From an uncultured Treponema sp. (GTDB lineage: Bacteria > Spirochaetota > Spirochaetia > Treponematales > Rectinemataceae), in NCBI GenBank assembly GCA_964531105.1, contig CAZHFN010000002.1:38322-102321 (forward strand): a DNA stretch of 64,000 nucleotides, written 5' to 3'. Both the position numbers and the translations under genes were made by a program. The notes under the pieces are model-generated. The model was not told where the DNA came from. It saw only the letters and a program-made list of their open reading frames with translations, and did not search any database. This document shows positions 4,585 to 59,711 of the stretch, piece by piece (position 1 is the stretch's first letter; every line of letters begins with the position of its first letter).

Positions 4585-5532
4585 ATGGAAAAGCTATGGC
4601 AAATCGCCCGAAAAATCAATATGGACCCGGCTAGGATACTCCAATCCGAGCCTATGGCCAAGCATACGAGCTTCGGAATCGGCGGACCGGCTGATTATTT
4701 CCTGAGGATTAGCTCGGTTTCCGAGCTGGCCAGAATCCTGAAAGCCCTGAACGATGCAGACGAAAGCTTTTTCCTCCTTGGCGGAGGCGCTAATATCCTT
4801 GTAGGCGATAGAGGCATCAGGGATTGGGTTCTGGATATCAGAGAAGTATCGGGAAGCGGGCTTCGGCCTCAAAAGAACAGCGCTGACCGCCCCCTCCTGT
4901 TCTCCGGAGCAGGCATCACGATTGACGGACTTTGTGAGGAAGCTTTGGCATTGGAATTGGAGGGTTTGGAAAACTTCTATGGCATGCCCGGAAGCCTCGG
5001 CGGAGCGATCTATATGAACGCCCGCTGTTATGAGAAGGATATATCCGAATCCCTTTACAGCCTTGAAGCGATATCCCCCCAAGGCGAATTGAAAATTCTC
5101 GATCCTTCCTCCCAGACCTGGGCTTATAAACGCTCGCCCTTCCAGCCTGGGGGGGCGTGGGAAGGCTTCATTATCACAGGCGCAAGCTTTCACCTTTGTA
5201 GAGGCGATGCCCTGGCCATTGCCTCGGTCATGCGTAGCAGAAAGGCCGATAGGGTTTCCAAAGGCCATTACCGCTACCCTTCCGCAGGATCCATGTTCAA
5301 GAACGATAGGGCCTTTGGAAAGCCTACCGGGGCAATCCTGGACAGCTTGGGCTTCAAGGGCAGAAGACGGGGAGATGCGGCAGTCTCGCCCTGGCATGCC
5401 AACATTTTTGTAAATCTCGGCAAGGCATCGGCCAGTGACATGAGGCTTCTAATCGAAGATGCGCAAGAAGCCGCCTTTAAGGCCTTTGGGTTGAGACTAG
5501 AGCCGGAAGTCCTTTTCGTGGGAGAGTTTTAA
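4585..5532 (+). CDS. murB: UDP-N-acetylenolpyruvoylglucosamine reductase
   Basis: 315 aa. N-terminal MAKHTSFGIGGPADYF FAD-binding signature and C-terminal MurB-type domain (SAGSMFKN ... GDAAVSPWHANIFVN). Confidence 0.92.
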   Translation: MEKLWQIARKINMDPARILQSEPMAKHTSFGIGGPADYFLRISSVSELARILKALNDADESFFLLGGGANILVGDRGIRDWVLDIREVSGSGLRPQKNSADRPLLFSGAGITIDGLCEEALALELEGLENFYGMPGSLGGAIYMNARCYEKDISESLYSLEAISPQGELKILDPSSQTWAYKRSPFQPGGAWEGFIITGASFHLCRGDALAIASVMRSRKADRVSKGHYRYPSAGSMFKNDRAFGKPTGAILDSLGFKGRRRGDAAVSPWHANIFVNLGKASASDMRLLIEDAQEAAFKAFGLRLEPEVLFVGEF

Positions 5533-8281: not shown

Positions 8282-8325
8282 AAAAAGGGGAGGCCGTCCT
8301 TTCGGACGGCCTCCCCAACTTTATT
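8282..8325. terminator. Bidirectional intrinsic terminator between convergent genes
   Basis: Perfect 13-bp GC-rich stem GGGGAGGCCGTCC (8287-8299) / GGACGGCCTCCCC (8304-8316) with loop TTTC. AAAAA lies upstream and a T-rich stretch downstream. Confidence 0.75.
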
Positions 8326-8340
8326 ACGCCACACTTAGTC

Positions 8341-11300
8341 TTACTGATTCTTTATGAGCACAAACTCCACGCGCCTGTTCTTCCAGCGGTTCTCCACGTC
8401 GAAGAAGCTCACTACAGGCTCGCTAGAACCTAAGCCCTCTACGCTCAACCTTCTTGGATCCACCCCGTTGCCCACCAGCATTGTGCGCACCAGCTCGGCC
8501 CTACCCGTGGAAAGGGGTATGAGCTCCTTGGTTTCCTCGGTCTGGATCCTGGCCTGGGAGTAACCCAGCATCTTGGCTACGTTGTTGGCATGACCCTCGA
8601 TCCTCACGCGGTAGTCCGGGAACTTGTTGAGAATCTGGGCAATACGGGCTACCACTTGTTCGTTGCGTGCCACTATCTCCGCCGACAAGCCTACAAAGTC
8701 GGCATAATTAGCCCTGAATACTATGGATGGCACCTTTATCTTGAGCCTGTCGCCGTCCCGTATAACTAAAACATCCACGGCGATAATCCCGCTCACCTCG
8801 GTGCTGTTGCCCAGCTGATCCCTGGCTACAAAGCTGAAGCGGTAATCGGTAGCCGACTCCACAAGCTCTCCCTTGGGCGACTTGCCGTCCCAGGTGATCG
8901 CTGCAGGGGGCTTGCCCTTGCCGTCCCAGGACGCGAAGAGCCTTTCGGAACTCACCGCATTGGGGTTGCTCGATTCCACCACCGCGGTCTCGAACACTTC
9001 CAGCTTCCAGTCTACCACGCCCGCAGAAGAATCCACCTCTATGCCGAAGGTGAGCCTGTCGTCCATCCCGTCATCATCGGGACTGAAGTACTCGGGCCTC
9101 ACGGTTATGCTCACGCTGGGAGGATCTACGTCCACTAAAACCGGCAGGCTCGTCGCCTGGGCCACATCGCCCTTCTCATAGGTTACCACCAGCTTGCCCA
9201 CATACTCGCCCTGCACCACTTGGCCCTGGAGATCCCTGCCGTCCCACACCAGGCGGGCCGGTACATCGGAACCCGAGCCTCCGAAGAAGCTTCTCTCCAC
9301 CCCTTCGGGATCCAGGAGGGAGAAGCGCCAGGATTCTATTCCCTCGCGCTTTTCAACGATTATCGTAAAGGATACTTCGTCACGGATTCCATCGCCGTTG
9401 GGCGACATACCCGTGTCGGAAGCCGTGACGTAGACTCTAGCCGTGGAGGCGTCCACCCTGATGCCACCAACCCTTGCTGATGCTGCGTTGCCCGCCAGGT
9501 CACTGGTACCGACTTCATAGGAGTAGACTCCATCGCCTACCACCCTGCCTGCCGTATCTTTGCCGTCCCAGACAAAGCTGCGGGCTTCATTCTTCCAGGT
9601 CCAGCTGCGCACTACAGTTCCTGCAGCATTGCGCATTCTGCCCGTCCAGTCATCGCCCAAACTGGAGTTTTGGGTAATGGTGATCGTGTCCTTGTTGCCA
9701 TCCCCGTTGGGCGAGAAGAGCATGGGTGCCGCGGATACGGAGATGCGCGGCCCCACCGTGTCGATAAGAACCTTGGGGCTGGCCAGGTTAAAGAGATCGT
9801 CGTTGCTGTAAAGAATCCTGGCCGCCACCTGGTATTCGCCATCGGGGGCCATGATGCCCGAATCTGTCCTGCCATCCCAGACATATTGATCCCTAATATC
9901 CGCCCTTCCCCTCCAAGCCTTTACGGGACTGGATTGCCTGCTGCCCGTCGCATTGAGGGAGAATACTGCGATTTCAAACTCGGCGATCGACTGGGGCTTG
10001 GGAGCCGCAATATTGATGTAGAGAGAATCCTTCACTCCATCGCCATTGGGACTGAAAGCCCGCTGATCCACCTCGAGCCTCACGGCCTTGCTGGCAGCAT
10101 CCACTTCTATGGGAAGTCTGGCCGACACAAAGCTGTTTTCCGCCTGGTCTATGGAGCGCAGTTCATAGAAATACTTGCCATCAGGTGCTTGGCCTCCGGC
10201 CTGATTTCTGCCGTCCCAGCTCACCAAGGGCAGGGAGCCTTCCCAAGTCCAGTATCTCACTATCCTCTCGCTGGAATCGATTATCTGACCCTGCCAGAGA
10301 TCTCCAGGAACTGCTTCCTGAATTATGTCCACCGTATCCGATCTGCCATCGCCGTTGGGGGAGAAAATGGAGGTGGAAAGACGCAGAGTGGCCTGGGGAG
10401 CGATCCTGTCCAGCACCAGGGGACCGATTTCCTGTGTATGTAAGTCGTCATTGGAGTAGAGCACTCTGAGCCGAGCATAATAGGATCCGTCTGGAGCAGG
10501 AATTCCCGAATCCGTAAACCCGTCCCAGTAATATTGGGTCCGGATATCTGAAGAGCCCTTCCAGCTCTTGACCGGCAGGGAAGAATCTCCACTGCCCGAC
10601 TGTACAATGAGAAGCTCGAAATTCTTGATTCTCTCGGGATACTGGGCTCTCACACCCATTAAAAGCCTGTCCCTCTTGCCGTCCCCATTTGGGCTGAAGG
10701 CCTGGGCATCGGCATCGAGGCGGACCGTCTTTTTCTCGGTTTCCACGGCTATTAGCATTTCTCTGCTCAGGGTTCTATTGCCCGCCTGGTCTACCGCTTC
10801 CGCCTGGTAGCGGTATTTGCCGTCCCGCACTATGGCGCCAGTCTCATCCCTTCCGTCCCAGGTAAAGCCCTTGGCCTCATTCTTCCAACTATAGGTTTTG
10901 ACAACCCTTCCATCCTGAGCCTTTATGCTGGCCTGCCAATCATCGCCAGGGAGTGAATTCTGTCGGATTTCCACAGAATCGGATCGGCCATCTCCATTGG
11001 GGGAAATGATGTCCAGCGTGGCCGCAACTTCTATTTTAGGCGCTATCCTGTCCAGAAGGAAACTGGGCGTGGGCGCATCGATCTGGTCGCCGTTGAGGTA
11101 ATTCACCCTGATGGTGGCGGCATAGCGGCCGTCAGGAGCCTGTACGCCCGAATCGGTCTCGCCCCTCCACTGGATGCGCTGGGGTGCCGAACCTGTACCA
11201 CGCCAGGTCCTCACCGCCGACAAGGCAGCCTGCCCATCCTGAGCCATGATCGCGAGTTCGTAATCCTTCACGCGCTCAGGGGCCTGTATAATGATGCCAA

Positions 11301-14300
11301 TACCCAATTCATCCCGCTGGCCGTCGCCATTGGGGCTGAAAGCCCTCTGGTCTATATCCAGCCGGACTGCCTTCTTTTCGGTTTCCACAGAGACCGGCAG
11401 CCTGCTTGAACTGTAACTATTGCCACCTGCATCGGTGGACTTCAATTCGTAATAGTAGGTTCCATCGGCTACGATAGCCTGGGAAGAATCCCTGCCGTCC
11501 CAGACAAGGGCTTCCAGCGCTTTATCCCAGGACCAGGTTCTGAGTACCTCGCCGCCTGCGCTGCTGATAGTCGCCTCCCAGGCATCCACAGGAGTAAGAG
11601 CTTCCTGGGCAAAGGTGATTGCATCCAAAATGCCGTCGTCATTGGGCGAGAACAATTTGGCCGAGAGAGAAACGGTTGCCCTGGGAGCTATTCTATCTAC
11701 CGTAAAGGGGCCTACTGTTGTTTCAGCCCTGTCTCCATTGGGATACGCGAGACTCATGATTGCCGAATACTCTCCGTCAGGAACGGCAATACCCACATCG
11801 GACTGTCCATTCCACTCGAAGTTTCTGGGCAATACTGTAGCGCCTTGCCAGGATCTCACTGCCTTGGATTCTCCGGTTGCCACAGCCGATGTGCCGGCAA
11901 TTATCCACATCTTCCAGGACTGTAGCCTGGAAGAAGAGGTAGCGTCGGCGCTCAAGATCAGGTTGTCCCTGACCCCATCCCCATTGGGACTGAATGCCAG
12001 ATTGTCAGCCGCGAGCCGTAGTTCCTTCTTGAGCGTATCCACTTCAAATCCCAGCTCCTTGGAGCTGAAGGCGTTGCCGGCCTTGTCAGTGGAAGAAACT
12101 ACGTATCTGTAGGTGCCATCGGGTACCAAGAAGCCATTGTCCCCTTTACCGTCCCAGTCGAGGGCAGCCGGGCTACCCTGGAACTCCCAAGTTTTCACTT
12201 TAATTCCTGCAGAGTTGAGAATCGCCGCCGACCAGAGTTCTTCACTGGAACCCTTCTGCTCGATTCTCAACACAGCCTGCTCGGGAGTTCCCGAAGGATT
12301 GAAGGCCACCTGGGCCGATTTAGCCTCCGCCGATGGATAAGCCCTGTCGAGCACCATGACCGAGCTTTCGACAATGCTGGAGAAGCCATTGATATAAGCC
12401 AGTTCAAGCCGAGCCTTATACGTTCCGTCTGGCAGCGCTGATCCGCTCCCAGCCTTGCCGTCGAATACATAGCGATCGGCCAGGATCTCGCCAGTGGCCT
12501 TGGGATGAGCCAGCACTTCCTTGCCTGGTCCCTCATTACCAACAATAGAGAATCTCCAGTCGCTCAATCCCTCGAGGGTTTCTACCTGGGGAGAGATCGT
12601 CAGCGTCTCGGCAATTCCGTCGCCATTGGGGCTAAAAGCCTCCCTGTCCAGACGCAAGCCCGAAGCGGGCCGTCTGGTATCCACCCGCACAGGGGCTGAA
12701 CTGACGGCGAAGCTATTGCCCGCCCTATCCACGGCGAACACATACATTTCATATTCGCCATCGGGGACTACCCTGCCCTGGTCATCCTTGCCGTTCCACT
12801 CCAGGGATTCGGGCAGATTCTGTGAATAGCGCCGTACAACCTTCTCGTTTTTCCGGGAATCCCTGATTATCAAATTCCAGGTATCCTCCTCCGATGAATC
12901 GAAGGCAAACACGAAACCGTCCCTGGCTCCATCGCCATCGGGGCTGAAAATTGTATTCTCATCAGCCAGCTTCACGGTAGCCGAAGGGGGTGTCCTATCC
13001 ATATAGAAGGGAGAGCTGAACTTAGTCTCCCCATAGCCGTTCCTGTACTCATAACTCACCAGCGCCTCATACTGGCCGTCGGCGAATGCCTGACCGGCTT
13101 CGGAAAAACCCGAGAACGTATAGGACTTCTCAGGAGGACTGTCGGCTCCGCCCCATACACGCCACACCTTGGTCTTCTCAGGGTTGTGCACCGCCACTTC
13201 CCAGCTGCTGAGGTTTTCAAATGATTCAAAGGCGGGAATAATAAGAAGCGAATCGCTGATGCCATCGCCGTTAGGACTCATCACCACCCCGTCGGTGGCA
13301 ATGGATACCTGAGGTCTTCTGGTATCGACAATAATATTGCGTACTTCGCTCTGGGCAGGGTTGCCAGCGTCATCCTTGGCGGAAAGCTTCAAGCTGTAAC
13401 TGCCGTCCGGAGCCCTACTGCCATCATTGGCCGTGCCATCCCATTCGAAGTCTGCTGGAGCACTCCTGTCCGCATACTCCCGAGAGCGCACGAGATTGCC
13501 GTTTATATCGAAAATTTCTATCTTCCAGCCGCTTTCCACCGATCCAGTATTCCTGAATGCAATACTGTCTTTCTTCCTGTCCCCGTCGGGACTCAGAATC
13601 ATGGTCGGTTCCAGGGATCTGGCGCTCGCCTGCGGTGTCGTACTGTCTACAACCACCGTAAGGCAGCTCAGATAGTCCAGGTTTTCATTGCCGTTATCGT
13701 CCCAAGCCCTTAGGCTTAGGGTATATGAGCCGTCGCGAACCCTGGCGCCTAAGTCGTCCAAACCGTCCCAGCTCACCGAAGTAGGCACGCTCACGCTTTT
13801 TCTCTGGTAGGCCAAGGCCGAACCGAGGGATCCTAAGCTTTGTATCGATTCCACCCTGTCGTTGGATTCGCCGATGGTTCTAACTATCCTGCCCGCCGAC
13901 TTGTCCTCTACGGTAAGTTTCCATCCGGCTATATAGCGCTCGTCGCTGATGGAAACCGGAATTTCCAGCTTGTCCTGCTCGCCATCGCCGTTGGGCGAAA
14001 TGTGGACCGTGCCTCTGTACGGAGCAGGAAGCTCGGCCTTGATGACCGGCGCTGTCCTGTCCCTGAGGCCGAAACTTAAATTTGCGCCGGCACCCAGGGC
14101 GTAGAGCGAATCGTACATGGGGGCTATAGCCATTCCTATACCCAGGCTCGCATCCCTATTTTTCTTGCCGCCCAACTGGATGCCCTTCTCTAGGGGGATA
14201 GTGCCCGATATTCCCAGGCTGGGCAGGAAACTCCGCCCCGACCCGTTGAGAATATCCCGCAAGCCAGCCGACCAGCCCAACCTGAGGGCTACGATATTCC

Positions 14301-15072
14301 TGAATTCGAAGCCAAAAGAGAGATCGAGACCCAGATCCTGGAATGAAGGACTCCAAAGATCCAGCCCCATATCGAGGTTCCAATAATAATTCTGGACAAG
14401 GTAGCTCCTCATGCCCAAACCCAGTGTGAATGCGGAGGGATAGGAGCCCGCAGCACCGCCTAAAATTCCCGTAGTCCCTGGAGTCGAATATCCCTTGCCC
14501 ATATCCAGCAGGGAAAAGCCAAAGCGCGTGTCTTTGAAGGCTCCCAAATCGCCGGCTAGCCAGGTAGCGCCCAAATCCAGGGAAAGCCCCCAGCCGAAAC
14601 CACCCTTACCTCCCATGGTGAGGTCGATGGCGCTGCCAATGTAGAGGCTGGGAAGAATATCCTTGGAAAATATCGCGGTGAGTCCGCCAAAGGTGCCCAA
14701 GGGCATGCTGGACATCGCGCCGGGTACCGAGAAGAACCGCGCTGCGCCTCCCCACACGCCATAGCTGCGGGGAAGAGAAAAGGCCAGAGACGCGGCAGAA
14801 CCCCAGCCCTGGGCTGCGGCTCCGAAGTCGGTGATACCGGTATACGCCGCTTCCAACTGCACAAGCTGGTTGCCGGCTGTCACCGATGGATTCAATAAGG
14901 CTGCCCATGGAGCTGAAGGTCCTGTCACCGTCGGTGTGTGGGCCAGTCCCCAAGGCGAATAGAGGGAGGGAAGAAAGACTCCACCCTTGGGCGGGTTGTA
15001 CCCGAACAGGGGAACTGCGCCGAGCATGACGATAATCAGAATCGCAATCCGAATCTTCTTGAAAAAGGACAT
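8341..15072 (-). CDS. Giant envelope protein: predicted N-terminal beta-barrel + 16 FlgD-Ig-like repeats + C-terminal OmpA-like peptidoglycan-binding domain
   Basis: 2243 aa. Signal-like start MSFFKKIRIAILIIVMLGAVPLFG. About 340 aa Gly/aromatic-rich with alternating hydrophobicity. 16 units of about 100 aa each carry (F/I/M)SP(N/D)GDGxxD ... W(D/N)G ... PDG.Y ... D.AGN. C-terminus RIEGHANNV ... LSTGRAELV ... NRRVEFVLI is an OmpA_C signature. Confidence 0.85.
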   Translation of the reverse strand: MSFFKKIRIAILIIVMLGAVPLFGYNPPKGGVFLPSLYSPWGLAHTPTVTGPSAPWAALLNPSVTAGNQLVQLEAAYTGITDFGAAAQGWGSAASLAFSLPRSYGVWGGAARFFSVPGAMSSMPLGTFGGLTAIFSKDILPSLYIGSAIDLTMGGKGGFGWGLSLDLGATWLAGDLGAFKDTRFGFSLLDMGKGYSTPGTTGILGGAAGSYPSAFTLGLGMRSYLVQNYYWNLDMGLDLWSPSFQDLGLDLSFGFEFRNIVALRLGWSAGLRDILNGSGRSFLPSLGISGTIPLEKGIQLGGKKNRDASLGIGMAIAPMYDSLYALGAGANLSFGLRDRTAPVIKAELPAPYRGTVHISPNGDGEQDKLEIPVSISDERYIAGWKLTVEDKSAGRIVRTIGESNDRVESIQSLGSLGSALAYQRKSVSVPTSVSWDGLDDLGARVRDGSYTLSLRAWDDNGNENLDYLSCLTVVVDSTTPQASARSLEPTMILSPDGDRKKDSIAFRNTGSVESGWKIEIFDINGNLVRSREYADRSAPADFEWDGTANDGSRAPDGSYSLKLSAKDDAGNPAQSEVRNIIVDTRRPQVSIATDGVVMSPNGDGISDSLLIIPAFESFENLSSWEVAVHNPEKTKVWRVWGGADSPPEKSYTFSGFSEAGQAFADGQYEALVSYEYRNGYGETKFSSPFYMDRTPPSATVKLADENTIFSPDGDGARDGFVFAFDSSEEDTWNLIIRDSRKNEKVVRRYSQNLPESLEWNGKDDQGRVVPDGEYEMYVFAVDRAGNSFAVSSAPVRVDTRRPASGLRLDREAFSPNGDGIAETLTISPQVETLEGLSDWRFSIVGNEGPGKEVLAHPKATGEILADRYVFDGKAGSGSALPDGTYKARLELAYINGFSSIVESSVMVLDRAYPSAEAKSAQVAFNPSGTPEQAVLRIEQKGSSEELWSAAILNSAGIKVKTWEFQGSPAALDWDGKGDNGFLVPDGTYRYVVSSTDKAGNAFSSKELGFEVDTLKKELRLAADNLAFSPNGDGVRDNLILSADATSSSRLQSWKMWIIAGTSAVATGESKAVRSWQGATVLPRNFEWNGQSDVGIAVPDGEYSAIMSLAYPNGDRAETTVGPFTVDRIAPRATVSLSAKLFSPNDDGILDAITFAQEALTPVDAWEATISSAGGEVLRTWSWDKALEALVWDGRDSSQAIVADGTYYYELKSTDAGGNSYSSSRLPVSVETEKKAVRLDIDQRAFSPNGDGQRDELGIGIIIQAPERVKDYELAIMAQDGQAALSAVRTWRGTGSAPQRIQWRGETDSGVQAPDGRYAATIRVNYLNGDQIDAPTPSFLLDRIAPKIEVAATLDIISPNGDGRSDSVEIRQNSLPGDDWQASIKAQDGRVVKTYSWKNEAKGFTWDGRDETGAIVRDGKYRYQAEAVDQAGNRTLSREMLIAVETEKKTVRLDADAQAFSPNGDGKRDRLLMGVRAQYPERIKNFELLIVQSGSGDSSLPVKSWKGSSDIRTQYYWDGFTDSGIPAPDGSYYARLRVLYSNDDLHTQEIGPLVLDRIAPQATLRLSTSIFSPNGDGRSDTVDIIQEAVPGDLWQGQIIDSSERIVRYWTWEGSLPLVSWDGRNQAGGQAPDGKYFYELRSIDQAENSFVSARLPIEVDAASKAVRLEVDQRAFSPNGDGVKDSLYINIAAPKPQSIAEFEIAVFSLNATGSRQSSPVKAWRGRADIRDQYVWDGRTDSGIMAPDGEYQVAARILYSNDDLFNLASPKVLIDTVGPRISVSAAPMLFSPNGDGNKDTITITQNSSLGDDWTGRMRNAAGTVVRSWTWKNEARSFVWDGKDTAGRVVGDGVYSYEVGTSDLAGNAASARVGGIRVDASTARVYVTASDTGMSPNGDGIRDEVSFTIIVEKREGIESWRFSLLDPEGVERSFFGGSGSDVPARLVWDGRDLQGQVVQGEYVGKLVVTYEKGDVAQATSLPVLVDVDPPSVSITVRPEYFSPDDDGMDDRLTFGIEVDSSAGVVDWKLEVFETAVVESSNPNAVSSERLFASWDGKGKPPAAITWDGKSPKGELVESATDYRFSFVARDQLGNSTEVSGIIAVDVLVIRDGDRLKIKVPSIVFRANYADFVGLSAEIVARNEQVVARIAQILNKFPDYRVRIEGHANNVAKMLGYSQARIQTEETKELIPLSTGRAELVRTMLVGNGVDPRRLSVEGLGSSEPVVSFFDVENRWKNRRVEFVLIKNQ
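9450..12030 (-). repeat. Four tandem about 645-nt (about 215-aa) di-domain super-repeats inside the giant gene
   Basis: Two Ig-unit types alternate. The A unit follows V(E/D)T(E/L)KK.VRL and ends LDRIAP; the B unit ends VETEKK or VDA. A-type SPNGDG codons sit near 11985, 11335, 10690 and 10045; B-type near 11640, 10990, 10350 and 9700. DNA copies are diverged (about 70% identity by eye). Confidence 0.7.
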
Positions 15073-15240: not shown

Positions 15241-16200
15241 TTATTGATACATTATCAGGCTTGGCCGCGGCTCAAGGGCCATCACCTCCTGAGGGCTCAG
15301 GAGGGGATTGTCCCAACCGGCCAGTGGAAAATCCGATTTAAAGAATAGCTTGAATCCCTTGATGGGAATATTTTCTGCCCTCGAATTAAGGGCATAGGAA
15401 TTCCGCTTGACCGCTGGGCTGCCAAAACCATCGGCGGTATGCACGAGAAGCACCCTATCCAGATCAGCCCTCACCCTTTCCCTGTTGCTGATCATCTTGT
15501 CCTGGAACTGGTGCACCACCAGCATCCTGACACCGGGAATATTATTAGCCACTATGTAATCCTGCATTATTCTCTGGGCCTGATTGAGTTCATCGGCGGT
15601 GATGGAACCAATCTCTTTCATGGGCTTGAGGGTTCGCCATTCGGGATCGATAGCCAGATGGACATTCGGATAGCGCAGGAAAGGCAGTATGCGCTTCATG
15701 GATTCTTCCACGGAGTATTTGCCAATCTGATGATCCACAAAGACGAGCATGCCCATTTCCTGGGCATAGAGTATGTAGTCCTCCAGGACAGATTCTTTCA
15801 GGTACCCAATCTCCCCGCCCGGCCAGCAAGTGCCATAGATAATGTAGTATGCGGGAACAGCGCCATCTTTACCGTTGACCTCATCATAATACCTCGCGTA
15901 GGACTTAACTCTCCGGGCAATTTCTTCCTTGGAATGTAGGCCGAGAATGCCCATCCGCTCGGAGAGCGGGTGTCCATAAAAGGCCACCACAGTATTGTTG
16001 GCCAGAAGAGGAATCCGATCGTGGGCCGATCCCCCAGTCTTGGTGACCGGGGTTTTGGAAACGGTTTGGGGTATTGAATCCTGGGAGGATTTCCTGTAGA
16101 GCGATGGGAAAAGCCTGTAGGGCGTAGTGTCCGAAAACACATTCGCGGATACGAAGGATAAAACAACAAAGAAAAACAGTACAGATCGCCGTGCGGGCAT
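15241..16200 (-). CDS. Secreted protein of unknown function, immediately upstream of and co-directional with the giant envelope gene
   Basis: ORF 15241..16248. Preferred start is ATG 16200 (MPARRSVLFFFVVLSFVSANVFS signal peptide, GGAG 5 nt upstream). No motif I can name confidently. Confidence 0.6.
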   Translation of the reverse strand: MPARRSVLFFFVVLSFVSANVFSDTTPYRLFPSLYRKSSQDSIPQTVSKTPVTKTGGSAHDRIPLLANNTVVAFYGHPLSERMGILGLHSKEEIARRVKSYARYYDEVNGKDGAVPAYYIIYGTCWPGGEIGYLKESVLEDYILYAQEMGMLVFVDHQIGKYSVEESMKRILPFLRYPNVHLAIDPEWRTLKPMKEIGSITADELNQAQRIMQDYIVANNIPGVRMLVVHQFQDKMISNRERVRADLDRVLLVHTADGFGSPAVKRNSYALNSRAENIPIKGFKLFFKSDFPLAGWDNPLLSPQEVMALEPRPSLIMYQ

Positions 16201-17066: not shown

Positions 17067-17120
17067 GCTTAGTCTGCTGCGTACATAAAGCGCCTACGTA
17101 ATGGCGAAAGAAAGTCCAAA

Positions 17121-17159
17121 GGGCTGCCGAGGAAGAAATTCCAGGCAGCCCTTTTTTTT
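17121..17159 (+). terminator. Intrinsic terminator of the 16554 gene
   Basis: Stem GGGCTGCC (17121-17128) / GGCAGCCC (17144-17151) followed by T8 (17152-17159). Confidence 0.75.
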
Positions 17160-17211
17160 ACCATATTCGTATAGCGTTGCGAACAGTACTCTATTGCTTA
17201 GTATAAAAATT

Positions 17212-17243
17212 AAGCCGTCGGCGGTAGTCACCGCCGACGGCTT
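17212..17243 (-). terminator. Intrinsic terminator of rpmB
   Basis: 13-bp perfect stem AAGCCGTCGGCGG / CCGCCGACGGCTT with a 6-nt loop. On the minus strand it is followed by AATTTTTATA. Confidence 0.7.
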
Positions 17244-17273
17244 CAGTTCACAGATTATTCGTGAAAGGCTGGA

Positions 17274-17465
17274 CTACACGTGCTTTACAATCTTCCCGGA
17301 CTTGAGACATTTGGCGCAAATTTTCACGGTCATCACCGTACCTTCAATCTTGGTCTTCACCGGAATAAGATTGGGAAACCAGGTTCTTCTGGTATGGTTT
17401 TTAGCGTGGGAAACATTATTGCCGTACATTGTGCCTTTGCCGCAGACATCACATACTCTCGACAT
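17274..17465 (-). CDS. rpmB: 50S ribosomal protein L28
   Basis: 63 aa, [33 protein letters not shown], a textbook L28 N-terminus. Confidence 0.95.
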
Positions 17466-17545
17466 AGTTAGACTCCAAACGAAATAAGTGGGCGTACTTT
17501 AGCCGAAACAATAAAAAATGTAAAGCCCCGCACAGCGGAGGATCA

Positions 17546-19914: not shown

Positions 19915-20490
19915 CTAGAGCGTACCTTTCAACCCCACGTCGCTCGCGACGGCCCTCAGGGCAAGGATCGTTTCGGCAATCAGGTTCTCCAGGGGCATGT
20001 CCAGCATGGCAGCGCCCTTTTCTATCACGCCGCGGTTTACGCCGGCAGCGAAGTTGACTGAACCCCACTTTTTCTTTACCGACCTGGTTTCCATATCCAG
20101 TACGCTCCGAGAAGGCCTTACATAGGCGCAGGCAGCGATAAAGCCCGTGAGCTCATCCACGGCAAAGAGGACCTTCTCCATTGTGTGCACTGGTTCCACA
20201 TCGCTGCAGAGCCCCCATCCATGGCTCAGGACAGCCCTTATAATGCCCTCTTCAACGGACTCCTTCTCCAGAATTTCTCTGGCATGGGTCAGATGCTCCT
20301 CCGGGTATTGCTGGTAATCCACATCGTGGAGTATTCCCACTATGCCCCAGTAATCCTCATCTTCGCCATATTTTCTGGCGAAATGCCGCATAGCCCCTTC
20401 TACCGAAAGAGCATGCCTGAAAAGGGAATCCTCATCGTTGTAGCGTCGCCAAAGTGAAATAGCCTCGTTTCTGTCCATTACAAGCCTCAC
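19915..20490 (-). CDS. HD/HDIG-domain phosphohydrolase
   Basis: 191 aa. H...HD motif (HALSVEGAM ... GILHDVDY). Confidence 0.8.
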   Translation of the reverse strand: MRLVMDRNEAISLWRRYNDEDSLFRHALSVEGAMRHFARKYGEDEDYWGIVGILHDVDYQQYPEEHLTHAREILEKESVEEGIIRAVLSHGWGLCSDVEPVHTMEKVLFAVDELTGFIAACAYVRPSRSVLDMETRSVKKKWGSVNFAAGVNRGVIEKGAAMLDMPLENLIAETILALRAVASDVGLKGTL

Positions 20491-22388
20491 TTGAGATTAA
20501 GGGTGATTCTGCTGCCTTCGTTTATCTTGCTGCCTGGCGCGGGCTGCTGGGATGCAACATAGCCATCGCCGTGGATAGATACCCTGATGTCCTTTCTTTC
20601 CAGAAGAGGTATGAGCGAACGTTTGGAATAGCCTTTGAGATCGGGCATCGTATCCCCTATGCTCGCATCCTTTTCTTCGGGCATGTGCAAGGTTCCGCTG
20701 TGCACCAGTATGGGCGATTTGCCTCTGTCTATATCCATGCTGGAAAGCACGGCCTCCGCTGCCTGCCTCAGCACCGGCGCTGCGATCTGCCCTCCCAGAT
20801 AGGAAACTCCCCTGGGTTTTATAATGGCGATATACAGGGCAATGCGCGGCTTATCCGCAGGAAAGATGCCCAGAGTACTGGCTATATAGTCCTTGTCCGA
20901 ATAAGCCCTGGTCTTGGAATCGATCATCTGCGCAGTGCCTGTTTTCACCGCCATGCGTATGTCGGGAACCTTGGCTCTCCAGCCCGTGCCCTGGAGGGAA
21001 GCGGTGTGTTCCATGGCATCCAGGATCGCCCTGGAGGTGGATTCGGACACTACCCTTCGCTGGACCTGGGCTTCGTGTTCAAATATCAGTTCCCCATCGG
21101 CGCTCTCTATCCTGCTCACCGTTGTTGGCTTCAATAAAAGCCCCCCATTGGCAATGGCTCCAGCCGCGGTGATCATCTGAAGAGCCGTAACCATAACCTC
21201 TTGTCCGATGGCGATTGTAGGCTTGCTTCTGCCCGACCATTTTTCCGGATCTCTCAGGGATCCAGGGCTTTCTCCAGAAAGACCTATACCCGTACGCGCA
21301 CCGAAACCAAAGGATAGGAGCCGGTCGTAGAAATCCCGCTCAGAAACCCTATCCGAGGCGTACCCCACCCCCGCGTTGCTGGAGAGTGCCAGGATTCCCG
21401 CGAGGTTCTGCTTGCCATAGACACCTAAATCCTTGATGATAATTTTCTCGCCGCTGGCCAGAGTCCTGCGATAGGCCCCGTCACAATCGAATACCGTAGA
21501 GGGAGAAATGGCTCCCATGTCCAGAATGGAAGCCATGCTGTAGAGCTTGAAAACCGATCCGGGCTCGTAAGAGTAAAGGGAGAGCAAGTCCCGCCTGGTT
21601 TCGGCATCATAGGAGGAGTAATTGTTGGGGTCGAAGCCCGGTTCGGCCGCGTAACACAGCAGTTCTCCGCTCTGCACGTCCATGGCCAGGGCCAGCGCCG
21701 CCTCGGCTCCATTGGCCTTTACCGTATCCCTAAGAAGCTCCTCGATCAGATGCTGAAGATTAGCGTCTATGCTCAAATATACCTTGTGGCCTTCCGGAAG
21801 CTTGGCATCGGGGTCGGCCAGCCTGCCAGTGCCGTCTTCGGCCTTTCTGGGTTTTGGCTTAAGCTCTTCATCGTATTTGATTTCAATACCGTCCAAGCCC
21901 ACATTACCCTCACCGGTAAAACCGATGAGGTGGGAAGCGAGCTTGCCCTCGGGATAGAGGCGTCCGGCTATCTCGTCCACCTGTACGCCCTTGAACTTGC
22001 CATCTTTCTTAGCCTGGATCAGGACTGAGGCCTTGTCGGCCGGCAGTCTTCGGGCTAGATAGAAGAAATTTTGCTGTCCGTCCTTATAGCGCGAGCTAAT
22101 AGATTCTCTGGAAATATCCAGGAGCTTGGCCAGGTCGGGTATTTCTATTTCGAATTTGGATTTGTCCGTGGAAGGTTTCCATACCGATATGTCGTATTTC
22201 GGCACATCCATAGCCAGGCTGAGGCCGTTTCTGTCTACGATGCGACCCCGCTCACCCTCGTCGGCCGCGGTGAGGGCAGAATTTTGGGAGGACGCGAAGG
22301 CCAGCTGGGCGTAGCGGGCGAAAATTAAAGCCGCCAGTATTCCGAGCATCCCAAGGGCGGAGCCCAGACGAAGTCTTGTCATCCTCAT
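20487..22388 (-). CDS. Class B penicillin-binding protein (transpeptidase) with C-terminal PASTA domain
   Basis: 633 aa. SVFK (SxxK), SSN (SxN) and KTGTA (KTG) motifs. C-terminal MPDLKGYSKRSLIPLLERKDIRVSIHGDGYVASQQPAPGSKINEGSRITLNL fits PASTA. Confidence 0.9.
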   Translation of the reverse strand: MRMTRLRLGSALGMLGILAALIFARYAQLAFASSQNSALTAADEGERGRIVDRNGLSLAMDVPKYDISVWKPSTDKSKFEIEIPDLAKLLDISRESISSRYKDGQQNFFYLARRLPADKASVLIQAKKDGKFKGVQVDEIAGRLYPEGKLASHLIGFTGEGNVGLDGIEIKYDEELKPKPRKAEDGTGRLADPDAKLPEGHKVYLSIDANLQHLIEELLRDTVKANGAEAALALAMDVQSGELLCYAAEPGFDPNNYSSYDAETRRDLLSLYSYEPGSVFKLYSMASILDMGAISPSTVFDCDGAYRRTLASGEKIIIKDLGVYGKQNLAGILALSSNAGVGYASDRVSERDFYDRLLSFGFGARTGIGLSGESPGSLRDPEKWSGRSKPTIAIGQEVMVTALQMITAAGAIANGGLLLKPTTVSRIESADGELIFEHEAQVQRRVVSESTSRAILDAMEHTASLQGTGWRAKVPDIRMAVKTGTAQMIDSKTRAYSDKDYIASTLGIFPADKPRIALYIAIIKPRGVSYLGGQIAAPVLRQAAEAVLSSMDIDRGKSPILVHSGTLHMPEEKDASIGDTMPDLKGYSKRSLIPLLERKDIRVSIHGDGYVASQQPAPGSKINEGSRITLNLK

Positions 22389-22414
22389 ACACTGTCCATG
22401 TGGTCGGGAAGGGG

Positions 22415-22894
22415 CTAGAGACCGGGCAAGGGCAGAGCCCTTCCCACTATATTGTTCATCGGCACCGGCCCATAGTCCCTTGAGTCCAGTGACTCGTATT
22501 TATTGTCGCCCATGAGAAAATATAAATCCCCTTTCGTCCCGGAGAGTTCCCTATCCTGAGAGGGAACTATCCTGCCAACCCGCTTTATGACCAGCGTAGT
22601 GATATCGGGCCTTAGGGCTGCCACCAATTCCCCTTCCCTGGGTGAGCCCCAGCGAAAAAAATATCCACCCCGGGGATTTCTGATACCATAGGCAGCCTTG
22701 AAAACCAGCACCAGATCCGAAGATTCCAAACCAGGGAGCATGGATCTTCCCTGCACAATGGCAAAATCGAGCACAAAGGCTCTGGTGATGAACAATGCCG
22801 CAACAATGACAAGAATTATACGCACAACCGCAGTGCCGGTAGAGACTTCCTCGATGTGTCCATCCTTGCCTTTCACAGCTTCCTCCACGAGCAT
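22415..22894 (-). CDS. lepB: Signal peptidase I
   Basis: Boxes GRSMLPGL (Ser), IKRVGRI (Lys) and GDNKYESLDSRDYGPVP. Start is uncertain: the ORF extends to a TTG at 22981, and ATG 22894 is given here. Confidence 0.8.
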   Translation of the reverse strand: MLVEEAVKGKDGHIEEVSTGTAVVRIILVIVAALFITRAFVLDFAIVQGRSMLPGLESSDLVLVFKAAYGIRNPRGGYFFRWGSPREGELVAALRPDITTLVIKRVGRIVPSQDRELSGTKGDLYFLMGDNKYESLDSRDYGPVPMNNIVGRALPLPGL

Positions 22895-22964
22895 CCGGCT
22901 GGTCTGGTTCTTTCCATACTTTGGATAATATATCGGATAAAAGTCGCCGATACTCGAAAGACCT

Positions 22965-24326
22965 ATGGATATCGATAACAAATCCGCCGGGGCGTATTCG
23001 AGTGAAGCATCAGCGCTTCACAGGCCCAAGCCCTTCGTCACCATACTGGATGGGGCAGCCCTCGCCTCCAAGCCAATCCGCCGCAAGGCTAGCATCAGAC
23101 AGACAAGCGTAGTCAGGCATTCGGTACGAAAGAGCGGCACCAAGCTGCGATCCTATGCCGGAGAAACCCTGCAGGCAAGCTCAAAGAACATCGCTCTTTG
23201 GATGCGTCGCAGTTTGGCAGGCCTGCTATCCCTGCCCACATCCCTCATCAAGAACCTAAAGGCTAAAAAAAATCCCCGCCCCGATGCACCGGATCCCCAG
23301 CCCCAAACGGCCGAGAGTAAACAAGCCATAAATCCAGCCATCGCCGTGAAGAAGTTTGCCGCTTTTATTGCTGGCATTCCCCTGGACAAAGCCCGGCGTA
23401 TACTGCCCGTTGTCCTGGTATCCTGTATTGTCATCTCGGCTGGCGCAGCCGCTCTTATTGGCGCCGCCCAATTTCCTCTTTCTCCATCCAGCCTCATTCT
23501 GCCCGATGAGGAATCAGCCCAGGCCTTGCTCATGGCCTACATCGCCCCGGAGAGCGCGGAAAAGGAAAACCTACCATCCGGAAGCCTTCCTCCGGTGCCT
23601 GTCACAATTAAGCTGGGCAGCTACACGGTGAGAAGCGGAGACAGCCTGGATAAAATAGCTAAACGCTTTGGCCTACGCCAGGATACCTTGATTTCGGTCA
23701 ACAATCTCCAGAGCGCATCTTCCATACGGGCAGGTATCAACCTGCGCATTCCCAACATGGATGGGGTAAGCCACAAGGTAAGGCGTGGAGAGAGCCTTTC
23801 GTCCCTCTCCAAAACCTTCGGAATAGACATGACAAAAATAGTGGATGCCAACGACCTGGCATCCAGCACAATTGCCGTTGGCCAGAGCCTCTTCATCCCC
23901 AATGCACGCCTGTCCTCAGCCACTCTCAGGCAGTTCTATGGCGAACAATTTACCTGGCCAGTTCGGGGCAGAATATCCTCTCCCTATGGTTACAGGGCTA
24001 ATCCCTTTACCGGGCTTCGTACATTCCATTCGGCCGTCGACATAGTCGTGTCCGTGGGCACCCCCATCAAGGCTACCAGTGACGGCAAGGTAGCCGACAC
24101 TGGCTACAATTCGGTATTCGGCAACTACATAATTCTCAAGCATGACAGCGGATACCAATCCCTTTATGCGCACTTGAGCAGGATCAATGTCAAGGAAGGT
24201 GGCTATATATCCAGGGGTACGGCCATAGGCCTCTCGGGTAATACGGGACAGAGCACTGGTCCCCATCTCCATTTCAGCCTGTTCAAAAACGGCCAGGCCT
24301 TGGATCCGACCAAATACCTTAAGTAG
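22965..24326 (+). CDS. LysM-repeat M23-family peptidoglycan endopeptidase
   Basis: 453 aa. Two or three LysM units (YTVRSGDSLDKIAKRFG; HKVRRGESLSSLSKTFG). M23 motifs HSAVDI and HLHFS. The N-terminal about 200 aa are low-complexity plus one TM; exact start is uncertain. Confidence 0.85.
   Translation: MDIDNKSAGAYSSEASALHRPKPFVTILDGAALASKPIRRKASIRQTSVVRHSVRKSGTKLRSYAGETLQASSKNIALWMRRSLAGLLSLPTSLIKNLKAKKNPRPDAPDPQPQTAESKQAINPAIAVKKFAAFIAGIPLDKARRILPVVLVSCIVISAGAAALIGAAQFPLSPSSLILPDEESAQALLMAYIAPESAEKENLPSGSLPPVPVTIKLGSYTVRSGDSLDKIAKRFGLRQDTLISVNNLQSASSIRAGINLRIPNMDGVSHKVRRGESLSSLSKTFGIDMTKIVDANDLASSTIAVGQSLFIPNARLSSATLRQFYGEQFTWPVRGRISSPYGYRANPFTGLRTFHSAVDIVVSVGTPIKATSDGKVADTGYNSVFGNYIILKHDSGYQSLYAHLSRINVKEGGYISRGTAIGLSGNTGQSTGPHLHFSLFKNGQALDPTKYLK

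Positions 24327-57881: not shown

Positions 57882-59711
<1,830 letters not shown>

What the first reader, a model, noticed from the sequence alone, without database searches (positions are those of the whole stretch)
8341..15072. Single 2243-aa polypeptide joining a predicted outer-membrane barrel, 16 Ig-like spacers and an OmpA peptidoglycan anchor
Seen: a signal-like N-terminus, then about 340 aa of Gly/aromatic-rich alternating sequence. Sixteen FlgD-Ig-like units with the SPNGDGxxD motif follow, and the C-terminus carries an OmpA_C signature (LSTGRAELV ... NRRVEFVLI). Established: OmpA_C domains bind peptidoglycan non-covalently, and in E. coli the length of the OM-PG tether Lpp sets periplasm width. 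Inference: this protein could be a very long OM-to-peptidoglycan tether or ruler, tens of nm if extended. In a spirochaete-like cell that would suit a periplasm that must hold flagellar filaments. It is co-directional with an uncharacterised secreted protein (15241-16200) just upstream. I know of no characterised member of this architecture.
Basis: partly seen in the sequence, partly recalled or inferred. Interest (0 to 1): 0.75.

Follow-up and report, generated by a model that had tools for sequence, protein, structure and literature searches.

The report
Giant spirochaete outer-membrane-to-wall tether protein
A 2243-residue spirochaete protein joins an outer-membrane barrel, sixteen Ig-like domains and a cell-wall-binding-type domain; it is probably a very long link between outer membrane and cell wall, and across its uncharacterised family the domain number comes almost only in multiples of four.

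Summary
ORF 8341-15072 (-) encodes 2243 aa: a signal peptide, an N-terminal domain, 16 Fn3/Ig-like units and a C-terminal OmpA-like domain.

- **Barrel.** AlphaFold2 models the N-terminal domain with confidence (pLDDT 83.7) as a 14-stranded barrel. It is closest to PorV, TodX and FadL and carries a hatch-like NP[AS] motif.
- **Topology.** An even strand count and short turns on one side put the Ig array and the OmpA-like domain in the periplasm. This is inferred, not measured.
- **OmpA-like domain.** It is divergent. The Arg is invariant in 114/114 relatives, but the canonical Asp and Asn that bind diaminopimelate (DAP) are replaced, as in Treponema pallidum Tp0624. Peptidoglycan binding is therefore plausible for ornithine-type walls but unproven.
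- **Family.** It is large, named only from spirochaetes, and carries only automatic annotation. Treponema denticola has an 8-unit member.
- **Unit number.** It is 4, 8, 12, 16, 20 or 48 in 86 of 89 complete proteins. It is exactly conserved at 16 in orthologues down to 54% identity. Two lineages reached 20 by different duplication routes.

Length is clearly selected. However, 48-unit and 4-unit members argue against a simple radial ruler. The link to flagella was not tested.

Verdict: a new variant of the OmpA-type tether.

The parts
8341..15072 (-). Whole gene, 2243 aa plus stop. The mature protein is about 240 kDa.
   Evidence: exact protein on record
15001..15072 (-). Signal peptide, residues 1-24. 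Predicted SPase I cleavage before YNPP; no lipobox.
   Evidence: Sequence. Relatives conserve a ...[FS][AG]|Y[ND]PP junction. The cleavage site is inferred.
14866..15000 (-). Hatch-like N-terminal segment, residues 25-69, with invariant N61-P62 (an NP[AS] motif; mature positions 37-39).
   Evidence: Invariant columns in A2. Helices 31-38 and 40-44 in the model. FadL has an essential NPA in its hatch (PMC8407342; the FadL N33A/P34A/deltaNPA entries listed). I did not verify that this segment sits inside the barrel lumen.
14068..14865 (-). 14-stranded outer-membrane beta-barrel, residues 70-335.
   Evidence: AF2 with 22-sequence alignment: pLDDT 83.7, pTM 0.78, 14 long strands. Foldseek best TM-scores: PorV 8gl6_F 0.60 and 6h3i_F 0.58, then TodX and FadL. 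Amphipathic alternation, 2-3-residue turns on one side, and a G-x-x-L-x-F last-strand motif.
14023..14067 (-). Conserved post-barrel segment, residues 336-350 (GLRDRTAPVIKAELP). Barrel-only homologues end here.
   Evidence: D338, P342 and I344 nearly invariant
8773..14022 (-). Array of 16 Fn3/Ig-like (FlgD_ig-type) units, residues 351-2100: 190 kDa, pI 4.6. Longer A-type units (about 111 aa) alternate with shorter B-type units (about 103 aa). The terminal units u1 and u16 are distinct.
   Evidence: The unit profile matches the Fn-type domains of streptococcal C5a peptidase/SpyCEP, and FlgD.
8344..8772 (-). Divergent OmpA-like domain, residues 2101-2243, pI 9.8. The motif reads EGHAN...(13-aa insertion)...ELIPLSTGRA...NRRVEF.
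   Evidence: Pfam OmpA 39.9 bits. PDB sequence hits to OmpA-like domains, E=4.9e-11. Motif analysis.
8287..8316 (.). 13-bp GC-rich hairpin followed by a T-run. It is a terminator-like site 25 nt past the stop codon and is shared with the convergent gene.
   Evidence: consensus match only
15241..16200 (-). Upstream co-directional gene for a 319-aa secreted conserved hypothetical protein. There is a 168-bp gap and no terminator-like site between it and the big gene, so it is possibly co-transcribed.
   Evidence: No Pfam, NCBIfam or PDB match.

Best explanation
The protein is an OmpA-type link between the outer membrane and the cell wall, built from unusual parts. After Sec export and signal-peptide cleavage, residues 70-335 are inserted into the outer membrane as a 14-stranded FadL/PorV-like barrel, with an N-terminal hatch-like segment. 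Both barrel ends face the periplasm. The chain therefore continues there as an acidic, 190-kDa string of 16 Fn3/Ig-like domains and ends in a basic OmpA-like domain. That domain binds the peptidoglycan, probably the ornithine-type spirochaete wall, or a wall-associated polymer, non-covalently through its invariant Arg pocket. The array acts as a long spacer or leash that limits or organises the separation of outer membrane and wall. Its domain number is under strong selection and changes in steps of four.

Shown: the domain architecture, the barrel prediction, family conservation and the quantised unit number.

Inferred: periplasmic location of the array, peptidoglycan binding, and the spacer function.
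For: (1) Pfam OmpA scores above its cut-off and FlgD_ig is present many times.
(2) The barrel model is confident (pLDDT 83.7, pTM 0.78, 14 strands). Every top Foldseek hit is an outer-membrane barrel, and the best TM-scores are to PorV, TodX and FadL. Some relatives give sub-threshold PorV/PorQ HMM hits (E=2.7e-6; E=1.2e-7).
(3) The strand count is even. Turns are 2-3 residues on one side and loops are longer on the other. N61-P62 in the hatch-like segment is invariant. This is the standard outer-membrane-protein topology, with a periplasmic C-terminus.
(4) The Arg of LSxxRA is conserved in 114/114 family members, and NRRVE is conserved. Three members keep the fully canonical TD...N..LS..RA motif, which suggests an ancestral wall-binding role.
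(5) Loss of the Asp with retention of the Arg is the pattern reported for spirochaetal Tp0624. Most spirochaetes have ornithine rather than DAP in their peptidoglycan (PMC5104382).
(6) 'Beta-barrel plus OmpA domain' is the only outer-membrane tether class found in Spirochaetes in a phylum-wide survey (bioRxiv 10.1101/2021.05.31.446380).
(7) Length is selected. Exactly 16 units, with almost no indels, persist at 54-80% identity. Family-wide counts are 4/8/12/16/20/48 in 86 of 89 proteins. Two lineages went from 16 to 20 by different duplication routes.
(8) The genomic context is cell-envelope housekeeping. MurB, a PBP, a LysM-M23 peptidase and signal peptidase lie within 10 kb. In two 8-unit lineages the gene sits directly upstream of yceG/mltG-dnaG-rpoD, with a 4-bp overlap in L024.
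Against: - The OmpA-like domain lacks two of the three critical DAP-binding residues. The comparable Tp0624 domain did not bind DAP. Binding to ornithine-type peptidoglycan has never been shown.
- Sixteen extended domains (about 60 nm) exceed any radial outer-membrane-to-wall distance I know of, and the 48-unit relative (about 190 nm) certainly does. The array must therefore be slack, folded or tangential, and a simple ruler is excluded.
- Wide length variation (4-48 units) is more typical of surface fibrils.
- Location was not measured, and I could not inspect model coordinates to confirm that the hatch sits in the lumen.
- The nearest named relative, Lsa66, is described as a surface adhesin (PMC3130794).
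Confidence: 0.55

Rival explanations
1. Periplasmic scaffold that does not bind peptidoglycan. The barrel anchors the protein in the outer membrane and the Ig array lies under it. The divergent OmpA-like domain binds another ligand, such as another envelope protein, a flagellar or periplasmic structure, or lipid. Together these would form a sub-membrane meshwork with a four-domain lattice period.
For: Asp and Asn of the canonical pocket are replaced in 111/114 members, and an 8-13-residue acidic insertion is present. Tp0624 failed to bind DAP. Quantisation in fours and 48-unit members fit a lattice or lateral arrangement better than a radial tether.
Against: The Arg and the rest of the OmpA fold are invariant. 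Three members keep the canonical motif. No partner gene is conserved across the family.
Confidence: 0.18
2. Surface fibril or adhesin. The Ig array and the OmpA-like tip are displayed outside the cell and anchored by the N-terminal barrel, as in inverse autotransporters, or as claimed for Leptospira Lsa66.
For: N-terminal barrel followed by tandem Ig-like domains is the order seen in intimin and invasin (my knowledge). The best NCBIfam hit is the 'fibronectin-binding adhesin Lsa66' (PMC3130794). Unit number ranges from 4 to 48. The SPNGDGxxD motif and acidic pI recall Ca-stiffened adhesin repeats (inference). The units resemble cell-surface streptococcal protease Fn domains.
Against: There is no IAT_beta/intimin barrel HMM hit, and the barrel has 14 strands rather than 12, with an N-terminal hatch-like segment. 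Barrel-only homologues have the same hatch and no passenger. Strand parity and turn pattern put the C-terminus in the periplasm. OmpA-like domains are periplasmic modules. The relatives named here are mostly environmental MAGs, apart from the oral pathogen T. denticola, and the gene sits among housekeeping genes. The Lsa66 score is below its cut-off and Lsa66 lacks the barrel.
Confidence: 0.12
3. Primarily a FadL-type uptake channel for hydrophobic compounds. The Ig-OmpA tail only immobilises or positions the channel relative to the wall and has no spacing role.
For: 14 strands, a hatch with an invariant NP[AS], and structural similarity to TodX and FadL. Barrel-only paralogues exist. T. pallidum FadL orthologues also carry periplasmic C-terminal extensions (PMC8407342).
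Against: There is no Toluene_X/FadL HMM hit even at E<=10. A 190-kDa tail with a strictly conserved, quantised domain number is hard to explain as a mere anchor. The best structural match is PorV, which is not a known small-molecule importer (my knowledge).
Confidence: 0.1

Closest known systems
OmpA (E. coli) / OprF (P. aeruginosa): barrel plus OmpA_C tethers
   Same: One polypeptide with an N-terminal outer-membrane barrel and a C-terminal OmpA-like (PF00691) domain. It falls in the operational 'OmpA' class that a phylum-wide survey found to be the only tether class in Spirochaetes.
   Different: The barrel has 14 strands and is FadL/PorV-like with a hatch, not the 8-strand OmpA_membrane barrel. 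The hinge is a 1750-residue, 16-domain array rather than a short linker. The canonical Asp and Asn of the peptidoglycan pocket are replaced.
Leptospira interrogans Lsa66 (NCBIfam NF053608)
   Same: FlgD_ig-type units followed by an OmpA-like domain. It is the best NCBIfam hit; residues 1727-2239 align to profile positions 96-579 of 581.
   Different: The score is 550 against a cut-off of 700, and it is inflated by 8 repeat stretches. The 581-position model leaves no room for a ~320-residue barrel, and its first 95 positions are unmatched, so no barrel is shared. Lsa66 is described as an extracellular-matrix- and plasminogen-binding surface protein (PMC3130794).
Treponema pallidum Tp0624 OmpA-like domain (PDB 5JIR)
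   Same: A spirochaetal OmpA-like domain that keeps the critical Arg and loses the acidic Asp. It is proposed to be adapted to ornithine-type peptidoglycan and appears among the PDB hits.
   Different: Tp0624 has no barrel and no Ig array. Its Asp becomes Ala, whereas here it becomes Asn with a 13-residue insertion.
FadL / TodX / PorV 14-stranded barrels, including T. pallidum FadL orthologues with periplasmic C-terminal extensions
   Same: 14 strands, an N-terminal hatch-like segment with NP[AS], and the best structural matches. There is precedent for C-terminal periplasmic extensions on treponemal FadL-like barrels.
   Different: The window protein gives no family HMM hit. The extension is Ig plus OmpA-like rather than alpha-helical. 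Transport was not tested.
Length-setting or spacer tethers: Lpp (E. coli), Omp-alpha (Thermotoga), OmpM (diderm Firmicutes)
   Same: Functional analogy only: proteins that bridge outer membrane and wall and whose length relates to periplasm width (my knowledge; OmpM).
   Different: These are coiled-coil or SLH-based proteins and are unrelated in sequence. None is built of tandem Ig domains with a quantised number.
Inverse autotransporters (intimin/invasin)
   Same: The order is N-terminal barrel, then tandem Ig-like domains.
   Different: They have a 12-strand IAT barrel with the passenger threaded through it, an N-terminal LysM periplasmic anchor and a lectin-like tip. None of these features is found here.

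Membership tests
OmpA-type tether (beta-barrel + OmpA_C in one chain) | OmpA_C domain (PF00691) above the gathering score | tested here: met
   39.9 bits against 27.2, residues 2130-2222. PDB OmpA-like hits down to E=4.9e-11.
OmpA-type tether (beta-barrel + OmpA_C in one chain) | Outer-membrane beta-barrel in the same polypeptide | tested here: met
   AF2 model with 14 strands, pLDDT 83.7. Top Foldseek hits are all outer-membrane barrels. This is a prediction only.
OmpA-type tether (beta-barrel + OmpA_C in one chain) | 8-stranded OmpA_membrane-type barrel (OmpA proper) | tested here: not met
   No OmpA_membrane Pfam hit. 14 strands were modelled.
OmpA-type tether (beta-barrel + OmpA_C in one chain) | Peptidoglycan-binding motif TD(x)7NxxLSxxRA, with Asp2, Asn10 and Arg17 critical (PMC5104382) | tested here: not met
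   Asp2 becomes Asn and Asn10 becomes Leu/Glu; Arg17 is kept. Family-wide: Arg 114/114, Asp 3/114, Asn 3/114.
OmpA-type tether (beta-barrel + OmpA_C in one chain) | Non-covalent binding to peptidoglycan | not testable with these tools
   Needs sacculus pull-down or ITC with ornithine-type muropeptides.
FadL / TodX / PorV family | 14-stranded barrel | tested here: met
   (TM 0.60 to PorV 8gl6_F; 0.55 to TodX)
FadL / TodX / PorV family | N-terminal hatch with an NPA motif plugging the lumen | tested here: inconclusive
   N61-P62 is invariant, followed by S in the window and close relatives and by A in most homologues.
FadL / TodX / PorV family | Match to family HMMs (Pfam Toluene_X; NCBIfam PorV_fam / PorQ) | tested here: not met
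   The window N-terminus has no hit at E<=10 in Pfam or at E<=0.1 in NCBIfam. Only some relatives give sub-threshold PorV/PorQ hits (27 bits against a cut-off of 90).
Lsa66 (NF053608 equivalog) | Whole-protein score at or above the curated cut-off, with the same architecture | tested here: not met
   550.5 against 700, summed over 8 stretches. Profile positions 1-95 are unmatched and the 581-position model has no room for a barrel.
Inverse autotransporter (type Ve) | 12-stranded IAT_beta barrel with a C-terminal passenger threaded through it | tested here: not met
   No IAT_beta hit. 14 strands with an N-terminal hatch-like segment.
T9SS type-B CTD cargo (CHU_C / TIGR04131) | A single sorting domain at the extreme C-terminus | tested here: not met
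   The CHU_C and TIGR04131 hits fall on internal repeated units such as 492-569. The C-terminus is OmpA-like.
FlgD hook-cap protein | N-terminal FlgD domain plus one Ig-like domain | tested here: not met
   Only the Ig-like part of the FlgD models is matched (for example profile 95-159 of 197), and scores are below cut-offs. There is no FlgD N-terminal Pfam hit.

The most novel reading that the evidence does not exclude
The Ig array is a length-quantised periplasmic spacer or scaffold. Its domain number, selected in multiples of four (4-48), would set the geometry between outer membrane and cell wall in spirochaetes. That would make this family the main, and so far overlooked, outer-membrane tether of the phylum, and the first envelope 'ruler' built from countable Ig domains.
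Probability: 0.22. Interest if true: 0.85.

Novelty: new variant of a known kind. Interest (0 to 1): 0.62.

Why it matters
How spirochaetes hold their fragile outer membrane to a wall that lies beyond the periplasmic flagella is poorly understood. They lack Lpp and Pal. T. pallidum's two OmpA-like proteins have no barrel.

This family supplies a concrete candidate: a barrel-anchored, wall-directed protein with a spacer that can be counted in domains. It has members in cultured spirochaetes:
- Treponema denticola ATCC 35405, AAS12542.1 (8 units), for which gene-deletion mutants are reported.
- Alkalispirochaeta americana, WP_076487874.1 (12 units).

Repeat-number engineering combined with cryo-ET would test directly whether a protein spacer sets envelope geometry. 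The unexplained rule of four domains hints at a higher-order structure worth solving.

Tried and rejected
- **Lsa66 equivalog.** Rejected: below cut-off, no barrel.
- **FlgD or flagellar hook protein, and T9SS cargo.** Rejected: only the generic Ig-like fold matches, and the hits fall on internal repeats.
- **Inverse autotransporter.** No supporting feature.
- **Recent or assembly-derived repeat.** Rejected: units share 17-46% aa identity and TRF finds nothing.
- **First structure model.** The 11-sequence alignment was too shallow (pLDDT 51.8). It was replaced by a model from a 22-sequence alignment that includes barrel-only homologues.
- **Sequence search of the barrel profile against PDB.** Nothing found.
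- **Word-based homologue search with the barrel alignment.** It added no taxa.
- **Exact-protein look-ups.** Those for the window protein, for its upstream neighbour and for the 1338-aa T. denticola form (P0185) found no contig.
- **Literature on the T. denticola orthologue.** 'TDE2028' (a locus tag I recalled from memory) and Q73L37 gave no papers. My guessed tags TDE2055-2060 are other genes. The OmpA family proteins mentioned in T. denticola papers are TDE0664 and TDE1663, and I did not establish whether either is this gene.
- **Upstream 319-aa protein.** No Pfam, NCBIfam or PDB match, and all 2025 homologues are 'hypothetical'. It is not linked to the family outside Rectinemataceae-like genomes and L020.
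- **Four-unit sequence super-repeat as the cause of quantisation.** Not visible in the identity matrix.
- **Rfam and tRNA scans.** Nothing in the window.
Full report
**1. The observation**

The minus-strand ORF 8341..15072 is real and encodes 2243 aa.
- It begins with a signal-peptide-like segment, MSFFKKIRIAILIIVMLGAVPLFG|YNPP. There is no lipobox, and the only Cys in the protein is residue 470.
- Residues 1-345 are rich in Gly (15.9%) and aromatic residues.
- Sixteen repeat units follow: 14 exact SP[ND][GD]DG motifs and 2 degenerate ones.
- The C-terminus scores above the Pfam gathering threshold for OmpA (39.9 against 27.2 bits).
- A GC-rich hairpin with a T-run lies 25 nt past the stop codon (8287-8316).
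- The repeats are old. Units share 17-46% identity, and only short motif-level DNA similarity occurs at spacings of 309, 333 and 642 nt. An assembly artefact is therefore excluded.
- The exact protein is on record on a 112.5-kb NCBI contig.

**2. Origin and family**

A scan of one genome per species found 23 loci, all from Spirochaetota MAGs labelled Rectinemataceae, Treponemataceae or Spirochaetales. The window's Ffh is 96% identical to that of two of them.

A profile search of 1.84 billion representative proteins gave 815 relatives with E<=1e-3. Those that carry names are 'OmpA family protein', 'FlgD immunoglobulin-like domain containing protein' or similar automatic labels. The organisms named include:
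- Treponema denticola ATCC 35405 (AAS12542.1 / Q73L37);
- T. putidum;
- Alkalispirochaeta americana (WP_076487874.1).

I found no paper describing this architecture. T. pallidum is reported to have OmpA-like proteins only without a barrel (PMC8407342).

**3. The N-terminal domain**

Pfam and NCBIfam do not recognise it, and a profile search of PDB sequences found nothing.
- Stand-alone homologues of about 350 aa exist. They end exactly where the Ig array starts in the window protein.
- With these in the alignment, AlphaFold2 gave a confident model (pLDDT 83.7, pTM 0.78). It has 14 long strands (residues 70-335), preceded by a short helical segment.
- All top Foldseek hits are outer-membrane barrels. 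The highest TM-scores are to PorV of the type IX secretion translocon (8gl6_F 0.60, 6h3i_F 0.58), followed by TodX and FadL.
- Some relatives give sub-threshold PorV/PorQ HMM hits.
- N61-P62 is invariant in the N-terminal segment, at mature positions 37-38. It is followed by Ser or Ala, which recalls the essential N33-P34-A35 of the FadL hatch.
- Many strands show hydrophobic alternation. Connections on one side are 2-3 residues and on the other up to 22. The last strand carries a G-x-x-L-x-F motif like a BAM beta-signal.

I conclude that this is a FadL/PorV-like outer-membrane barrel. By strand parity and turn pattern, its C-terminus faces the periplasm. That last step is an inference. I could not inspect the model coordinates.

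**4. The array**

Each unit is one Fn3/Ig-like sandwich of about 103-114 aa; unit 1 is 135 aa.
- The unit profile aligns end to end with the Fn-type domains of streptococcal C5a peptidase and SpyCEP, including the SPNGDGxxD start, and with the Ig-like domain of FlgD.
- Units alternate between a longer A type and a shorter B type. Unit 1 (next to the barrel) and unit 16 (next to the OmpA-like domain) are distinct.
- The array is 190 kDa with pI 4.6. The OmpA-like domain has pI 9.8.

**5. Selection on unit number**

This is the most striking result.
- Orthologues at 54-80% identity over the full length have almost no indels, and many are exactly 2243 aa.
- Among 89 complete family members the unit count is 4 (7), 8 (52), 12 (9), 16 (16), 20 (2) and 48 (1). 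The only exceptions are 10, 10 and 11.
- On a rough NJ tree of the barrels the root state is 8. Transitions 8→12, 8→4 and 16→20 each occur more than once.
- The visible duplication unit is the A-B pair, so 6, 10, 14 and 18 units would be expected, yet they are nearly absent.
- Two lineages went from 16 to 20 by different routes. One made a single four-unit duplication whose copies are 72-85% identical. The other made two separate two-unit duplications whose copies are 68-73% identical.

This points to selection for multiples of four. I have no structural explanation for it, and no four-unit sequence periodicity is visible.

The 5734-aa, 48-unit member is found on two Mb-scale contigs. In another assembly it is split into 4065 + 1669 aa.

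**6. The OmpA-like domain**

It aligns with solved OmpA-like domains at E=4.9e-11. The published binding motif is TD(x)7NxxLSxxRA, with Asp2, Asn10 and Arg17 critical (PMC5104382). The window protein reads EGHAN-(longer loop)-ELIPLSTGRA.
- Asp2 is Asn. Asn10 is Leu or Glu, depending on how the gap is placed. Arg17 is kept.
- Across 114 relatives, Arg is invariant, while Asp and Asn are canonical in only three, which also lack the loop insertion.
- This is the pattern described for T. pallidum Tp0624. That domain kept the Arg, lost the Asp and did not bind DAP. Its authors related this to the ornithine-type peptidoglycan of most spirochaetes.

In this phylum, though, it does not exclude wall binding. 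It leaves wall binding unproven.

**7. Context**

- The upstream co-directional gene (15241-16200) encodes a secreted conserved hypothetical protein. It has more than 2000 homologues and no recognised domain.
- It is adjacent to the big gene in all Rectinemataceae-type loci and in one distant locus, but not in T. denticola or in other 8-unit loci. It is not a family-wide partner.
- The window neighbourhood is chromosomal housekeeping with several envelope genes: MurB, a PBP with a PASTA domain, signal peptidase I, a LysM-M23 peptidase, a polysaccharide deacetylase and GlmS.
- In two 8-unit lineages the gene lies immediately upstream of yceG/mltG-dnaG-rpoD, with overlapping stop and start codons in one of them.
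- In T. denticola an RlpA-like DPBB+SPOR gene lies nearby.

**8. Mechanism**

The best-supported reading (confidence 0.55) is an OmpA-type link between outer membrane and wall. The barrel sits in the outer membrane. A periplasmic Ig array forms the spacer. A basic, Arg-centred OmpA-like domain holds the wall. A phylum-wide survey found 'barrel plus OmpA domain' to be the only tether class in Spirochaetes, and this family fits that operational class.

Assuming about 4 nm per domain (my knowledge), the extended lengths would be roughly:

| Units | Extended length |
|---|---|
| 4 | about 15 nm |
| 8 | about 30 nm |
| 16 | about 60 nm |
| 48 | about 190 nm |

The 8-unit form of a flagellated treponeme could plausibly span the space that holds flagella. 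The 16-48-unit forms cannot be radial rulers. They must be slack, folded or tangential.

Rectinema, the name genus of the window's relatives, is described as rod-shaped. I could not establish whether this organism has flagella.

The rivals are:
- a periplasmic scaffold with a ligand other than peptidoglycan (0.18);
- a surface fibril or adhesin (0.12);
- a FadL-type channel with an accessory anchor (0.10).

**9. Novelty and verdict**

The family is in databases only under automatic names, and I found no characterised member. In kind it is a variant of the OmpA-type tether, with a different barrel class, a divergent binding pocket and a very long, quantised Ig spacer. I rate it 'new variant of a known kind', with interest 0.62. 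A member in T. denticola, where gene-deletion mutants are reported, makes the hypothesis directly testable.

Noticed in passing
family-wide (window 8773-14022; loci L007, L016; proteins P0011-P0170): The Ig-unit number is almost always a multiple of four (4, 8, 12, 16, 20, 48), although the sequence repeat is a two-unit A-B pair. L016 gained four units in one block. L007 gained them as two separate pair duplications. I have no structural explanation.
   Followed up: partly
window 15241-16200 (-): Secreted 319-aa conserved hypothetical protein directly upstream and co-directional. It has more than 2000 homologues, all unnamed, and no Pfam, NCBIfam or PDB match. It is adjacent to the big gene in Rectinemataceae-type loci and in L020 only.
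   Followed up: partly
proteins P0092, P0108, P0122-P0126, P0130, P0134, P0139, P0142, P0145, P0150-P0152, P0155, P0156, P0158: A subfamily of barrel-only homologues of about 350 aa, with a signal peptide ending ...FA|YNPP. They stop exactly at the barrel/array junction and cluster together on the barrel tree. They are an unrecognised spirochaete outer-membrane protein family with no Pfam model.
   Followed up: partly
L024 4001-9267; L022 3580-8584: In two 8-unit lineages the barrel-Ig-OmpA gene lies between a metallo-beta-lactamase-fold gene and yceG/mltG-dnaG-rpoD. In L024 its stop codon overlaps the yceG start by 4 bp.
   Followed up: partly
proteins P0170 (5734 aa), P0014 (4065 aa), P0171 (1669 aa): A 48-unit, 5734-aa family member on Mb-scale contigs. 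In another assembly the same gene appears split into 4065 + 1669 aa, probably through a frameshift or an assembly error.
   Followed up: no
window 4585-5532, 20487-24326, 25417-26496, 57882-59711: The neighbourhood is rich in envelope genes: MurB, a PBP transpeptidase with a PASTA domain, signal peptidase I, a LysM-M23 peptidase, a divergent polysaccharide deacetylase and GlmS.
   Followed up: no
window 17101-17487 (+): A 128-aa ORF with an odd, low-complexity-looking translation is conserved at 54-80% aa identity by tblastn in about 11 related loci. It has no Pfam hit and the region has no Rfam hit. It could be a small membrane protein or a conserved non-coding element.
   Followed up: partly
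window 8341-15072 and T9SS components (comparison): The three module types of this one protein parallel separate parts of the Bacteroidota type IX secretion system, which I believe spirochaetes lack. These are a PorV/PorQ-like barrel, CHU_C/FlgD_ig-like sandwiches and an OmpA-like domain (compare PorE). This may hint at shared ancestry, but so far it is only a resemblance.
   Followed up: no
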